From NCBI RefSeq assembly GCF_013315695.1, contig NZ_CP054353.1: a stretch of 64,000 nt of DNA; one strand, given 5' to 3'. Of the stretch, positions 44,729-47,954 are shown in pieces. Position 1 is the first letter of the stretch, and every line of letters starts with the position of its first letter. The notes beneath the pieces were generated by a model, which saw only the letters and a list, made by a program, of their open reading frames with translations, searched no databases and was not told the DNA's origin. The position numbers were made by a program, and so were the translations under genes. This DNA comes from Escherichia coli. Lineage in GTDB: Bacteria; Pseudomonadota; Gammaproteobacteria; Enterobacterales; Enterobacteriaceae.

Positions 44729-44935
44729 GTAGATGCTCATTCCATCTCTTATGTTCGCCTTAGTGCCTCATAAACTCCGGAATGACGCAGAGCCGTTTAC
44801 GGTGCTTATCGTCCACTGACAGATGTCGCTTATGCCTCATCAGACACCATGGACACAACGTTGAGTGAAGCACCCACTTGTTGTCATACAGACCTGTTTT
44901 AACGCCTGCTCCGTAATAAGAGCAGGCGTTTTTTT
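44729..44935 (+). ncRNA. glmZ: Small regulatory RNA GlmZ
   Basis: GTAGATGCTCATTCCATCTCTTATGTTCGCCTTAGTGCCTCATAAACTCCGGAATGACGC... ending in the CGCCTGCTCCGTAATAAGAGCAGGCG T7 terminator; about 207 nt. Confidence 0.9.
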
Positions 44936-45533
44936 ATGACCGGATAAAGAACTGGTTACGTCGCTCCTGGGTCATCGGTTGCGCGTTTAACACTCTTACA
45001 AGAGAGCCTACCGTGACGATGGGAAGAAACGGATTCTCTTCTATTCCGCATAGATCGCGCCCGCAACGAGCAGCGGTATCTTCAACCAGCTCTTCTAACT
45101 CGACTGCGTCGCTCACCAAATCCAGATCATCGTCCAGTATATCATCGGCTTTCAGTGGCAGTGGGTAATCGATATAGCCGTTTCCTTGCAAGGTATCCCA
45201 CACCGCACGAATCACCCATGTATCTACGGTGTAGGTGTCAAATTCGCGGGCGAACTGGCAAATGGAGCGTCCCCGACGTTTATCTGCCATGATTCGGTAC
45301 TTCTTGAGGATCTTGATTTTTTCCTGCTTCGCCGCAGCTATCAGATATCCAATAAAAAGTGTTAACCAGAAGATGAATGTATTGCCCGTACGTACAAAGG
45401 AAATAATCAACCAACTTACGCCAGCCAGAGCGGCACATATCAACAAGATTAAAAAGAGCGTTGCCCGAAAAGGAGTAATTTCATGCGATGGCAAGCGGAA
45501 AAGATAGCGGGACGGCGTGCGCAATTTTGACAT
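44934..45533 (-). CDS. Hypothetical two-TM membrane protein with acidic C-terminal domain (199 aa), function unknown
   Basis: ORF with ATG start at 45533; two hydrophobic helices (about residues 24-46 and 52-68); weak RBS; stop overlaps the glmZ terminator T-run; start lies 6 nt past the hemY terminator. Confidence 0.45.
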   Translation of the reverse strand: MSKLRTPSRYLFRLPSHEITPFRATLFLILLICAALAGVSWLIISFVRTGNTFIFWLTLFIGYLIAAAKQEKIKILKKYRIMADKRRGRSICQFAREFDTYTVDTWVIRAVWDTLQGNGYIDYPLPLKADDILDDDLDLVSDAVELEELVEDTAARCGRDLCGIEENPFLPIVTVGSLVRVLNAQPMTQERRNQFFIRS

Positions 45534-45538
45534 CCTGG

Positions 45539-45573
45539 TAAAAAAATATCGCCTCTGAACGAGGCGATATAGA
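45539..45573 (-). terminator. Intrinsic terminator of the hemCDXY operon
   Basis: ATATCGCCTC / GAGGCGATAT hairpin followed on the minus strand by a 7-T run. Confidence 0.8.
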
Positions 45574-46770
45574 TTACTGTGACGGGTTATTCTGTAAGGT
45601 CAGCATCAAACCGTCGCGGCGCATCGCTGCAGCTTCTTCTGGTTTGTGCAGTCTGTCCAGCGCGTCGGCAAGCCATGCGTAATCGTAGGCGTCCGGACGT
45701 TGTTTCAGCGCCGCGCGGAAGGCGAGCGATGCTTCCTGCCATTCGCCGTGCTTCATCAGCGACTGACCCAGTGTGCTCCACAACAACGGGCGATCGCCCA
45801 CGTTTTTGATCTGTTGGCGCAGCACTTTTTCCAGCTGTTCCGGGTTATTGGTTTTCAGACGCGGGATCGGCAGCAGCAGGCGATCGTCATACTGGCGTTT
45901 CAGGCCGTCGATGATAATTTGCTGGGCGGTGTCATGGTCATCACACTCAATAAGGTGTTCCGCCATTGCCACCTGTAACGCCACCTGATGACGCGTTTTC
46001 CGGCTTTGGTTTTTCCACCAGTTACGCAAACCTTCGCTACCGTTATCGGCACGCGCCTGATCCATCAGGCCAATCCATGCCTGTTGTTCCAGCATTGCAC
46101 GATGTTCTTCATCGCCAACGTGGGCTTTCGCCATTGATGGGATGATATCCAGCAGCGAACTCCATGCACCAGTGCGGATATACGCCTGTTCCGCCAGACG
46201 TAATACTTCCGGATGGCGTGGCGTAACTTCCAGCAGCTTATCCACGCCGTGGCGTGCAGCATGGTTTTCATTACGGGCCAGTTGCAGACGTACACGGGTG
46301 ATTTCTACCGGAATTGTGTCGTTGCCGGCCAGCTCCGCTGCGCGTTCCAGATGTTGGTTGGCGCGTGCTTCATCACCGCGTTGTTGCGCGGCTTCGGCAG
46401 CCAGCAGATAGTTCACCACCGGTTGTTCAGCGTGATCGGCATTTTTCGCCATCAGCTTTTCAACTTGCTGATAATCGCCTTCCGCTAGTTTCAGCAGCGC
46501 CTGTTCGGTCTGCTTACGGGCACGGCGACGCTTACGTCCGACAAACCACCCACGGGTGTGTGCGCCTGTGCGGAAGATCCGCCGCAGTAGCCACTCAATG
46601 GCAAACAGCACTACCATCGCCAGAATCAAAATAATCGCCAGGCCAGTGACGCTGGTTTCGATATTGTAGTTGTCGGTCTGAATCAATACGTACCCCTGAT
46701 GACCGGCAATCATCGGGCCAACCACGATCCCCGCAATCAGCAAAACAAAGAGCAATAACACTTTTAGCAT
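45574..46770 (-). CDS. hemY: HemY (TPR-containing membrane protein of the hem operon)
   Basis: 398-aa ORF MLKVLLLFVLLIAGIVVGPMIAGHQGYVLIQTDNYNIE... Confidence 0.95.
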   Translation of the reverse strand: MLKVLLLFVLLIAGIVVGPMIAGHQGYVLIQTDNYNIETSVTGLAIILILAMVVLFAIEWLLRRIFRTGAHTRGWFVGRKRRRARKQTEQALLKLAEGDYQQVEKLMAKNADHAEQPVVNYLLAAEAAQQRGDEARANQHLERAAELAGNDTIPVEITRVRLQLARNENHAARHGVDKLLEVTPRHPEVLRLAEQAYIRTGAWSSLLDIIPSMAKAHVGDEEHRAMLEQQAWIGLMDQARADNGSEGLRNWWKNQSRKTRHQVALQVAMAEHLIECDDHDTAQQIIIDGLKRQYDDRLLLPIPRLKTNNPEQLEKVLRQQIKNVGDRPLLWSTLGQSLMKHGEWQEASLAFRAALKQRPDAYDYAWLADALDRLHKPEEAAAMRRDGLMLTLQNNPSQ

Positions 46771-46772
46771 GG

Positions 46773-47954
46773 TTATTCTCCTTGCGGCGCGGCTGCCGGA
46801 GTATCAGCTTGCGGTGCAGGTGCAGGTTTAGCTTCCGTTGCCCCCGCTGCCGGTTGTGCCAACAGGTTACGCACGCGAGTCTGCATCAGTTTTTCCAGCA
46901 TCGCCTGGCTTTGCAGGGTTTCGGGGAGATCCATCGAGATATTTTGCTGGCTTAACTGGTCCACCTCGTCGAGGAACGCTTTGGTGGTGGCATCATCAGT
47001 ATCGTAGTAAGCACGTACCCAGGTGGAGACGTTCTCCAGCGCCTGGCGATAAGTCTCTTCCTGATGACGCGGTACGGCTTGTGCCGCGACCAGCAGGCGA
47101 GAGCGAATATTTTCGCGCAGATAGATATCCTGATTTGGCGCTAACAGCGGTACGGCGGTGTCATCACGACGGCGAATCGTAATGAAGTTGTCCATAAAGT
47201 TCTGCCAGCTTTTTTGCAGATTGATACGCCATTCGCTGATGGAACTGGAAAGCTCTTCACCGTCGGAATCCATCGGCGAACCATCGCTGTCATTATCAGC
47301 CAGACGCAGGTTATCTACCTGATTTGAAAGCTGATTAAGCTTAAGGATAATGCCGTCATAATCCACCTGCGATACCGCAGAAAGGCTGGCGATATCATCG
47401 GTAATTGCCCGGCGAACGGTAATCAGACTCGGGTCATTCATATCCGCCAGGCTGGCGTCTGCACTTTTCAGCAACGCTGCAGCGGTCGTGACGTCCTGAT
47501 CGCTCCACAGCTTCCGTCCGGCGAGTTTCACCAGGAAATCAGCCTGAGCCAGCAGCCAGGTTTTAGCATCGCTGCCGGAAATAGTCGCGACCTTTTGTTG
47601 GACTTCATCCAGCTGTTTTGCCAGCGTTTCTTGCTGACGATTCGCCTGCTCAAGCTGTACAGCTTGTTGCTTGATAATGCCTTCCAGCTCGGCTTTTTGG
47701 CTCTCCTGGGCTTTTTGCAGTGCCGTAAGTTGGTTAGCCAGGGCATCGCTGGTGGCAGTCTGATTGACGGCCTGTTGTTTACCCCAGCCATACAAACCGA
47801 CGCCCGCCGCCAGAGCAATAGCGATAGCCACCGCGCTGAGAATCAATGCGGTATTGTTCTTACTCTTTTTTTCTGTTGCGACAGGTTGTGACGTGGTGTC
47901 CACGGCCTCCCTGGTCTCTTCAACCACGGCGGAGGTTTTTTCTTGTTCCGTCAT
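46773..47954 (-). CDS. hemX: HemX membrane protein
   Basis: 393-aa ORF with coiled-coil and Q/A-rich region. Confidence 0.93.

What the first reader, a model, noticed from the sequence alone, without database searches (positions are those of the whole stretch)
44934..45533. Unassigned 199-codon membrane-protein ORF wedged between the glmZ and hemY terminators
An uninterrupted ATG-initiated ORF encodes a protein with two predicted transmembrane helices and a strongly acidic C-terminal domain (DDILDDDLDLVSDAVELEELVED). Its stop overlaps the T-run of the convergent glmZ terminator. Its start lies 6 nt beyond the hemY terminator with only a weak RBS, so any expression would depend on read-through from the hem operon or an unrecognised promoter. 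I cannot assign it to a gene I know at this locus. It is either a real gene that is lightly annotated or an ORF-like remnant, and the convergent overlap with glmZ could matter for sRNA 3-prime end formation.
Basis: partly seen in the sequence, partly recalled or inferred. Interest (0 to 1): 0.5.

Follow-up and report, generated by a model that had tools for sequence, protein, structure and literature searches.

The report
Membrane-anchored carrier-protein-like gene beside glmZ
The ORF is a real but dispensable gene, missing from E. coli K-12 and kept in about 13% of E. coli (including ST131), that encodes a membrane-anchored protein whose cytoplasmic part is predicted to fold like an acyl carrier protein but lacks the serine such carriers need; its function is unknown.

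Summary
There is a 199-codon ORF at 44934-45533 (-), wedged between the hemY hairpin and the convergent glmZ terminator. It is a genuine gene, not a remnant. NCBI's PGAP pipeline annotates it as a 196-aa hypothetical protein. The conserved start is the 4th codon (TTG at 45524), with an AGGA Shine-Dalgarno 8 nt upstream. dN/dS between E. coli alleles is about 0.25. It belongs to an unnamed family of about 940 clusters (50% identity) spread over many phyla, with no Pfam, NCBIfam, PADLOC or PHROG model.

The order hemY, ORF, convergent glmZ recurs in Escherichia sp. E1V33, in E. albertii (frameshifted) and in two more distant enterobacterial contigs. The gene is therefore probably ancestral here and was deleted in K-12-like strains (4725 of 5426 complete genomes). 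693 genomes keep it, 589 of them with the allele found in ST131. Distant relatives are integron gene cassettes.

Function is inferred only: most likely a prosthetic-group-free, membrane-tethered protein-binding module. Expression is unproven. Interest is moderate.

The parts
44934..45524 (-). Coding sequence of the 196-aa protein. TTG start at 45524-45522; TAA stop at 44936-44934.
   Evidence: ORF. PGAP start. Conserved N-terminus MRxPSR in homologues. dN/dS 0.22-0.28.
45525..45533 (-). Three in-frame codons (ATG TCA AAA) upstream of the conserved start.
   Evidence: No homologue outside Escherichia has this extension.
45533..45536 (-). Shine-Dalgarno-like AGGA, 8 nt upstream of the TTG start.
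   Evidence: Sequence. Relatives have CAGGAG or ACAGGAG 5-7 nt before their starts.
45498..45524 (-). Conserved N-terminal cytoplasmic motif, residues 1-9 (MRTPSRYLF). The family consensus is M-[RK]-x-P-S-R-x-M-P.
   Evidence: Column counts. Low AlphaFold confidence.
45393..45464 (-). Transmembrane helix 1 (residues 21-44).
   Evidence: Hydropathy; AlphaFold helix 18-46.
45330..45380 (-). Transmembrane helix 2 (residues 49-65), followed by a basic juxtamembrane stretch with net charge +8.
   Evidence: AlphaFold helix 49-82.
44976..45269 (-). Acidic cytoplasmic domain with a predicted acyl-carrier-protein-like four-helix fold (residues about 86-183). It has no conserved phosphopantetheine serine.
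45539..45570 (-). Hairpin after hemY (stem-loop 45570-45546, -16.1 kcal/mol) with its U-tract. It is an intrinsic terminator or attenuator between hemY and the ORF.
   Evidence: A homologous hairpin without a U-tract occurs in L004.
44729..44935 (+). glmZ sRNA gene, convergent with the ORF. Its terminator hairpin (44901-44930) and T-run overlap the ORF stop codon.
   Evidence: Rfam RF00083, 218 bits. Terminator scan. Folds of both strands.
44939..45573 (.). 635-bp strain-variable segment (hairpin plus ORF). K-12-like E. coli have an unrelated 44-bp spacer instead.
   Evidence: Alignment. K-12 annotation. 4725 genomes have the short form and 693 have the ORF.
45574..46770 (-). hemY, the upstream co-oriented gene and last named gene of the hemCDXY operon.

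Best explanation
Shown. The ORF is a genuine accessory protein-coding gene of 196 aa that starts at TTG 45524. It lies immediately downstream of hemY on the same strand and ends inside the convergent glmZ terminator. The protein has a conserved N-terminal motif and a two-helix transmembrane hairpin. It also has an acidic C-terminal domain, predicted with high confidence to adopt the acyl-carrier-protein (ACP) four-helix fold. It belongs to a widespread, unnamed and uncharacterised family. The order hemY, ORF, convergent glmZ is shared by several Escherichia lineages and by two more distant enterobacterial contigs. Most E. coli, including K-12, carry a 44-bp spacer instead. Distant family members are integron gene cassettes.

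Inferred. Both protein ends face the cytoplasm, so the ACP-like domain is tethered to the inner face of the inner membrane. The gene is ancestral at this locus and was lost by deletion in K-12-like strains. It has no promoter of its own and is transcribed by read-through from hemCDXY, ending at the bidirectional glmZ hairpin. The serine that carries phosphopantetheine in true carriers is not conserved, so the domain most likely does not carry acyl groups. It more likely acts as a prosthetic-group-free protein-binding module: an ACP mimic or adaptor that binds a basic partner surface through its acidic helix II and holds that partner at the membrane. I put about 0.3 on this mechanism. I put about 0.9 on 'real gene of this family with this fold'.
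For: Real gene:
- PGAP calls a CDS, and every listed row (29 rows; 60 rows) has a hypothetical-protein CDS under the match.
- dN/dS is 0.28, 0.24 and 0.22 among three Escherichia alleles. For comparison, hemY gives 0.006-0.05 and aslA about 0.02. Both halves of the gene are constrained. Fisher p = 6e-7.
- There are 51 close homologues and 940 clusters at E <= 1e-3, 206 of them at E <= 1e-30, mostly 170-200 aa and matching full length.

Start and ribosome-binding site.

Fold:
- The C-domain model has pLDDT 92.6 and pTM 0.86.
- Foldseek on the full-length model gives 28 ACP hits among 30.
- There are weak sequence echoes. PRK05350 (ACP) scores E = 0.017. DUF1493 matches 1 of 138 members at E <= 1e-3 and 6 at E <= 0.1. 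UniProt auto-names some members 'Carrier domain-containing'.

No carrier serine:
- The column aligned to AcpP Ser36 reads P34/D29/E18/S14 of 138.
- Residue S138 of the window protein is R in a 97%-identical allele and N in ST131.

Topology.

Synteny and ancestry:
- The same gene order occurs in L009, L004 and L006 with glmZ confirmed, and in E. albertii.
- The ORF's dS (0.32-0.37) is comparable to hemY's (0.20-0.39). This fits co-inheritance with its flanks rather than recent transfer.

Read-through:
- No sigma-70 consensus promoter was found.
- The hairpins in L004 and L006 lack U-tracts.
- In K-12, hemY itself runs into the reverse glmZ hairpin.

Stand-alone function:
- No conserved neighbours exist outside the enterobacteria.
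- An integron integrase and attC sites flank family genes.
Against: Expression is not demonstrated. In E. coli the hairpin between hemY and the ORF has a run of U (6 after the stem) and looks like an efficient terminator. The start codon in this window is the weak TTG.

The gene is dispensable. It is absent from 87% of complete E. coli genomes and is frameshifted by two different 1-nt indels in E. albertii.

Protein divergence is high: 16% between the two E. coli alleles, against under 0.4% for HemY and AslA.

The adaptor or mimic mechanism rests on fold analogy only, and no partner is known. The family's invariant residues (R83, F91, R106, D128, and near-invariant C89) are not ACP features, so the binding mode may be unrelated to ACP's.

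The fold assignment comes from a predicted structure, not a solved one. No relative in the PDB is detectable by sequence.
Confidence: 0.6

Rival explanations
1. It is a self-contained protective module. It could be an orphan immunity protein against a toxin or bacteriocin, or a small anti-phage or stress-protection effector. The membrane hairpin would act as the effector or anchor and the acidic domain as the sensor or neutraliser.
For: Distribution is patchy and lineage-specific, with repeated loss. The protein evolves fast for its neighbourhood. Family genes are mobilised as single-gene integron cassettes. From textbook classification (SCOP fold a.28, recalled and not tested here), colicin DNase immunity proteins share the ACP-like fold class and are acidic.
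Confidence: 0.17
2. It is an accessory factor of late haem biosynthesis or of HemX/HemY. As a fifth gene of the hemCDXY operon, its membrane-tethered domain would work with the inner-membrane proteins HemX or HemY.
For: It lies directly after hemY on the same strand, with no promoter detected. This position is kept in Escherichia and in two more distant enterobacterial contigs.
Against: In Kosakonia, Phytobacter and Superficieibacter the homologue sits after rlmC and before artJ. Elsewhere its neighbours are unrelated or it is an integron cassette. 87% of E. coli lack it.
Confidence: 0.08
3. It is a true carrier protein. Ser138 would be phosphopantetheinylated and would carry an acyl or aminoacyl group at the membrane.
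For: The domain has a predicted ACP fold. In one alignment the window's S138 falls opposite AcpP Ser36. 14 of 138 family members have Ser in the equivalent column.
Against: The serine is not conserved, even in a 97%-identical allele (R) or in the ST131 allele (N). Family-wide that column is mostly P, D or E. There is no D-S-L motif, no Pfam PP-binding hit, and no neighbouring synthetase, ligase or phosphopantetheinyl transferase.
Confidence: 0.04
4. In E. coli it is an evolutionary leftover. The reading frame is still open but is effectively untranscribed and on its way to loss.
For: A canonical terminator precedes it and the start codon here is the weak TTG. It has been deleted in most E. coli and frameshifted in E. 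albertii. GC is 48.8%, against 53-55% for its neighbours.
Against: dN/dS of 0.22-0.28 is maintained between alleles that differ by dS of about 0.3-0.4, so selection has acted over a long period within Escherichia. No E. coli genome in the listed rows has a disrupted copy. The frameshifted versions P0026, P0036 and P0038 trace at least in part to an error-ridden assembly.
Confidence: 0.08

Closest known systems
Acyl/peptidyl carrier proteins (AcpP and the PP-binding superfamily, Pfam PF00550)
   Different: There is no conserved serine for phosphopantetheine and no PF00550 hit. The domain is fused to an N-terminal transmembrane hairpin. It has an extra N-terminal element (S-I-C-x-F-A-R-x-F) and invariant Arg, Asp and Trp residues that ACPs lack. 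It is not encoded next to any fatty-acid, polyketide or non-ribosomal peptide synthesis enzyme.
DUF1493 (Pfam PF07377), small enterobacterial proteins of unknown function
   Same: This is the only non-membrane Pfam family that any member touches. 1 of 138 members matches at E <= 1e-3 and 6 at E <= 0.1. The resemblance in acidic helix motif is recalled from memory and was not tested.
   Different: The window protein does not match it. From Pfam's description (recalled), DUF1493 proteins are about 115 aa, which is too short for the transmembrane hairpin plus domain seen here. DUF1493 function is itself unknown; the papers found mention it only in passing.
CptA/YgfX (Pfam PF07254), a membrane toxin with a two-helix transmembrane hairpin and a cytoplasmic domain
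   Same: The overall architecture is the same: an N-terminal two-helix hairpin followed by a cytoplasmic domain. A few members give weak Pfam hits: 2 at E <= 1e-3.
   Different: Profile comparison with E. coli YgfX gives probability 0.5% over 4 columns. There is no homology, and no sdhE-like partner gene.
Integron gene cassettes of unknown function
   Same: Distant family members are single promoterless ORFs bounded by attC sites, one of them next to an intI gene. Like a cassette gene, the E. coli copy has no detected promoter and sits downstream of another gene.
   Different: No attC-like site flanks the E. coli, L004 or L006 copies. The enterobacterial copies behave as vertically inherited chromosomal genes, with dS similar to their flanks.

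Membership tests
Acyl/peptidyl carrier protein (PP-binding) | Four-helix ACP fold | tested here: met
Acyl/peptidyl carrier protein (PP-binding) | Conserved serine (D-S-L) at the N-terminus of helix II for 4'-phosphopantetheine attachment | tested here: not met
   The column opposite AcpP Ser36 reads P34, D29, E18, S14 of 138. The window's S138 is replaced by R in a 97%-identical allele and by N in ST131.
Acyl/peptidyl carrier protein (PP-binding) | Significant match to the family's sequence models (Pfam PF00550 or NCBIfam ACP models) | tested here: not met
   No PF00550 hit for the window protein or for 138 members. The best NCBIfam ACP hit is E = 0.017 at 15 bits, against a cutoff of 65, for one member. 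hhalign against AcpP gives probability 1.8%.
Acyl/peptidyl carrier protein (PP-binding) | Actual phosphopantetheinylation and acyl loading | not testable with these tools
   This needs mass spectrometry or Sfp/AcpS labelling.
DUF1493 (PF07377) | Match to the Pfam model above threshold | tested here: not met
   The window protein has no hit. 1 of 138 members matches at E <= 1e-3 and 6 at E <= 0.1.
CptA/YgfX toxin (PF07254) | Sequence or profile homology to YgfX | tested here: not met
   hhalign of the family profile against E. coli K-12 YgfX gives probability 0.5% over 4 aligned columns.
Integron gene cassette | ORF bounded by attC recombination sites within an array next to intI | tested here: not met
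   Not met for the window copy: no attC-like site is found on either side. Met for relatives. L060 has intI (TIGR02249, 428 bits), and attC-like sites flank the gene in L005, L037, L044, L046, L048, L052 and L060. That is 7 of 54 loci against 5 of 540 control positions. By eye, L022, L027, L036, L045 and L054 also qualify.
Known anti-phage defence proteins (PADLOC) or phage protein families (PHROGs) | Significant match to a library model, or presence on viral contigs | tested here: not met
   PADLOC gives only E = 0.0025-0.026 hits to unrelated models. PHROGs gives nothing below E = 0.03. No relative was found in IMG/VR.
The unnamed family itself (transmembrane hairpin plus serine-less ACP-like domain) | Full-length match with the N-terminal M-R-x-P-S-R motif, two transmembrane helices, and the conserved R83, F91, R106, D128 and Q182 positions | tested here: met
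   The window protein carries every invariant and near-invariant residue. Profile hits cover positions 1-195.
   218.4 bits against a threshold of 60, over the full model.

The most novel reading that the evidence does not exclude
The family could be a previously unrecognised class: prosthetic-group-free ACP mimics tethered to the inner face of the membrane. They would spread as promoterless single-gene modules, as integron cassettes in environmental bacteria and as fixed operon-tail genes in enterobacteria. They would act by capturing or competing for an ACP-binding enzyme or another basic partner at the membrane. That would tune lipid or envelope metabolism, or block an invader that depends on host ACP. 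In E. coli this would be a lineage-specific trait of ST131 and a few other clades that K-12 work could never have revealed. Its transcription into the glmZ terminator might also couple it to GlmZ levels.
Probability: 0.2. Interest if true: 0.6.

Novelty: new variant of a known kind. Interest (0 to 1): 0.38.

Why it matters
The gene sits in a textbook locus (hemCDXY, glmZ, aslA) that has been studied almost only in K-12. [quoted passage not shown] The gene is fixed in the allele class that includes the pandemic ST131 lineage: 589 genomes are at least 99% identical.

It defines a sizeable family, about 940 clusters at 50% identity, with no Pfam, NCBIfam, PADLOC or PHROG model and no relative in the PDB detectable by sequence. 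Its architecture, a membrane hairpin plus a serine-less ACP fold, has not been described as far as I could find. Its recurrence as an integron cassette suggests a portable function that works without partner genes.

If that function is ACP mimicry, it would be a new way to regulate ACP-dependent enzymes. If not, this remains one more conserved hypothetical protein, though one with a clear structural handle for experiments.

Tried and rejected
**Library searches.**
- Pfam, NCBIfam, PADLOC and PHROGs on the window protein and on up to 14 relatives gave only sub-threshold hits over the transmembrane region.
- PDB sequence searches with two family profiles found nothing significant.

**CptA/YgfX homology.** Weak Pfam hits suggested it. 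Profile comparison rejected it, with probability 0.5%.

**Phage and plasmid origin.**
- There are no relatives in IMG/VR.
- The only 'plasmid' hit is an 801-kb Pseudoalteromonas replicon, where the gene is a lone insertion next to an IS3 element.

**attC relics around the E. coli gene.** None were found. My first three attC detectors were too strict and missed even obvious sites. Only the relaxed version, checked against control positions, was used, backed by reading the sequences.

**Recent horizontal transfer as the cause of the 12.5% divergence between E. coli alleles.** I consider this unlikely, because the ORF's dS is comparable to that of hemY.

**Frameshifted 'proteins' P0026, P0036 and P0038 as evidence of decay in E. 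coli.** I discounted these. The P0038 contig also has broken hemY and aslA genes, which points to assembly errors.

**Sulfurovum upstream ORF pair as VapBC.** They look PIN-like by eye, but there is no NCBIfam support.

**Literature.**
- Nothing was found under either protein accession.
- DUF1493 appears only in passing mentions.
- A search for integron cassettes with an ACP-like membrane protein returned one unrelated genome paper.

Full report
**1. The observation**

The window holds an uninterrupted ORF at 44934-45533 on the minus strand (199 codons, ATG start).
- Rfam places glmZ at 44729-44935 on the plus strand with 218 bits.
- A pattern scan finds the glmZ terminator stem at 44901-44930 and a second terminator-like hairpin at 45570-45546 on the minus strand, just after the hemY stop at 45574-45576.
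- Both hairpins are stable: -19.8 and -16.1 kcal/mol, z about -6.
- The ORF stop is the complement of 44934-36, inside the glmZ T-run.
- The ATG at 45533 lies 6 nt after the hemY U-tract.
- The two hydrophobic segments and the acidic stretch are present.

The description is accurate.

**2. The start codon**

NCBI's PGAP pipeline annotates a 196-aa hypothetical protein that starts three codons further in. Every homologue, down to 28% identity, begins M-R/K-x-P-S-R at that position. Here that codon is TTG (45524); in the ST131 allele it is ATG. An AGGA lies 8 nt upstream. Relatives have CAGGAG or ACAGGAG 5-7 nt upstream of their starts.

**3. A real gene**

Three Escherichia alleles give dN/dS of 0.28, 0.24 and 0.22 by the Nei-Gojobori method (this window, ST131, Escherichia sp. 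E1V33). hemY gives 0.006-0.05 and aslA about 0.02.
- The deficit of non-synonymous change is significant (Fisher p = 6e-7).
- It holds in both the membrane part and the C-terminal domain.
- The word-indexed protein search found 51 homologues.
- A profile search of 1.84 billion cluster representatives found 940 with E <= 1e-3 and 206 with E <= 1e-30. Nearly all are 165-200 aa and match end to end.
- A scan of one genome per species found the family in Enterobacteriaceae, Pseudomonas, many Burkholderiales, marine Gammaproteobacteria, Alphaproteobacteria, Sulfurovum, Verrucomicrobiota, Planctomycetota and Armatimonadota.

**4. History at this locus**

K-12 has no such gene. Between the glmZ T-run and the hemY stop it carries 44 bp with a different hairpin.

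Among 5426 complete E. coli genomes:

| State at the locus | Genomes |
|---|---|
| K-12-type short junction | 4725 |
| ORF present | 693 |
| ORF, allele >=99% identical to ST131's | 589 |
| ORF, window-type allele | 104 |

The two allele classes differ by 12.5% in DNA and 16% in protein. Their HemY and AslA proteins are more than 99.6% identical.

Synonymous divergence of the ORF (0.32) is only moderately above that of hemY (0.20) and aslA (0.11). Against E1V33 it equals hemY's. The high protein divergence therefore reflects weaker constraint, not import of a foreign allele.

The same order, hemY then ORF then convergent glmZ, occurs in four other places:
- Escherichia sp. E1V33 (L009).
- E. 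albertii, where two strains carry different 1-nt indels that split the gene.
- Metagenomic contig L006, with HemY 92% identical and the ORF product 57% identical.
- Metagenomic contig L004, with HemY 90% identical and the ORF product 39% identical (same calls).

UniProt also holds copies from E. fergusonii and Klebsiella aerogenes. The simplest reading is an old gene at this site that was lost by deletion in most E. coli. This is an inference; I could not survey all outgroups.

In Kosakonia, Phytobacter and Superficieibacter the homologue instead follows rlmC and precedes artJ.

**5. What the protein is**

No Pfam, NCBIfam, PADLOC or PHROG family matches. No PDB sequence matches either.

Hydropathy and charge place both termini in the cytoplasm. 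The transmembrane segments are 21-44 and 49-65, the following stretch carries +8 charge, and the C-domain has pI 4.2.

Structure prediction gave:
- Full length: pLDDT 80.
- C-domain alone, with a 70-sequence alignment: pLDDT 92.6 and pTM 0.86.

Fold searches gave:
- Foldseek on the full model: 28 ACPs among 30 hits.
- AFDB50: only family members, all uncharacterised, a few auto-named 'acyl carrier protein'.

The family motif D-L-x-I-D-x-(D/E)-D-L aligns with ACP's D-L-G-x-D-S-L-D. The column opposite Ser36 is Pro, Asp or Glu in most members and Ser in only 14 of 138. The window's S138 becomes Arg in a 97%-identical allele and Asn in ST131. So the fold test is met and the defining chemistry test is not. 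The protein looks like an ACP but should not be filed as one.

Positions conserved across the family but absent from ACPs include R83, I88, C89, F91, R93, D101, W103, R106, D128, R153, R156, N164-P165 and Q182-P183, plus the N-terminal P-S-R-x-M-P motif.

**6. Mobility**

Outside the enterobacteria no neighbour is conserved. Many loci are arrays of small co-directional ORFs separated by imperfect inverted repeats that begin TAAC and end GTTA, as attC sites do.
- A relaxed detector finds such a site starting within 40 nt of the stop codon in 7 of 54 loci, against 5 of 540 control positions.
- Five more are clear by eye.
- In L060 an integron integrase (TIGR02249, 428 bits against a cutoff of 265) lies divergently upstream, and the family gene is the second cassette.
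- No relatives occur in viral contigs.
- Essentially none occur on plasmids.

A gene that works as a lone promoterless cassette probably has a self-contained function.

**7. How it most likely works**

Shown: the gene structure, the selection, the predicted fold, the lack of a conserved carrier serine, the synteny and the cassette contexts.

Inferred:
- (a) Transcription by read-through from hemCDXY. No sigma-70 consensus was found, the hairpins in relatives lack U-tracts, and the transcript would end at the bidirectional glmZ hairpin as hemY's does in K-12.
- (b) A cytoplasmic ACP-like domain held at the membrane.
- (c) Action as a protein-binding module or ACP mimic rather than as a carrier. 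I give this about 0.3.

Rivals are an immunity or defence module (0.17), a haem-pathway accessory (0.08), a decaying unexpressed ORF (0.08) and a true carrier (0.04).

**8. glmZ**

The glmZ sequence, hairpin and T-run are identical with or without the ORF, so 3' end formation in cis is unchanged. On the ORF strand the same hairpin is followed by UUAAAAC, a poor U-tract. Some antisense read-through into glmZ is conceivable but untested.

**9. Verdict**

This is a real, annotated but uncharacterised accessory gene. It belongs to an unnamed, widespread family with a new architecture built on a known fold. It is ancestral in Escherichia, lost from K-12 and retained in ST131. Interest is moderate. 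Nothing here overturns existing knowledge, but the family is a well-defined target with clear experiments.

Noticed in passing
L060:1905-4434; also L005, L022, L027, L036, L037, L044, L045, L046, L048, L052, L054: Distant family members are integron gene cassettes. attC-like TAAC...GTTA sites flank them. In L060 an integron integrase (TIGR02249, 428 bits) lies divergently upstream. A nearly identical leader, GTTACGTTGCAAGGTGAAGT-ATGAA, precedes the 176-aa version in Oceanobacter, two Rheinheimera species and Microbulbifer, with a variant in Pseudoalteromonas.
   Followed up: partly
L065:2266-2857 and L066:2260-2857 (E. albertii): Two E. albertii strains carry different 1-nt indels. One is in an A-run (GCAGGAAAAAATC) and the other at GGCAAAC. 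Each splits the gene into about 80 aa plus 118 aa. This is either independent decay or homopolymer sequencing error.
   Followed up: partly
L003:3143-3186 (K-12), corresponding to window 44939-45573: K-12-type strains replace the 635-bp segment with 44 bp that contain an unrelated hairpin (CCCGGAGG-TGCTTG-CCTCCGGG) with no U-tract. Its origin is unknown. In K-12 the hem operon probably terminates at the reverse face of the glmZ terminator.
   Followed up: partly
window 46773-47954 (hemX); L002:532-1761; L009:1541-2752: HemX length varies among strains: 393 aa here and 403 aa in Escherichia sp. E1V33. PGAP calls 1230 nt in ST131 and 1206 nt in MS 21-1. This suggests indels, or start-codon differences, in the low-complexity part of the protein.
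   Followed up: no
L010-L015 around 4001-4600: In Kosakonia, Phytobacter, Superficieibacter and an Enterobacteriaceae MAG, the homologue sits 20-37 bp after rlmC in the order potI, ybjO, rlmC, [gene], artJ. This is again an operon-tail position facing a convergent gene.
   Followed up: partly
L047:3311-4540, L057:3284-4552, L063:3158-4381 (Sulfurovum): The family gene's start overlaps the stop of a conserved pair of small ORFs (89-98 aa and 143-155 aa). They look like a PIN-type toxin-antitoxin pair by eye but have no NCBIfam hit.
   Followed up: partly
L067 (E. coli GCA_039615175.1): This assembly has hemY, aslA and the ORF all broken into pieces. At least some of the frameshifted protein clusters P0026, P0036 and P0038 are therefore probably sequencing artefacts rather than pseudogenes.
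   Followed up: partly
AFDB entry B7LU57 (E. fergusonii ATCC 35469): The E. fergusonii orthologue is recorded as 281 aa, although the family is 170-200 aa. The start is probably over-extended in that annotation.
   Followed up: no
L004:4956-4979 compared with window 45546-45570: The hairpin between hemY and the ORF keeps its core sequence (ATCGCCTC...GGGGCGAT) in a contig whose ORF product is only 39% identical, yet only the Escherichia version has the U-tract. The hairpin may therefore have a role other than termination, such as RNA stability or processing.
   Followed up: no
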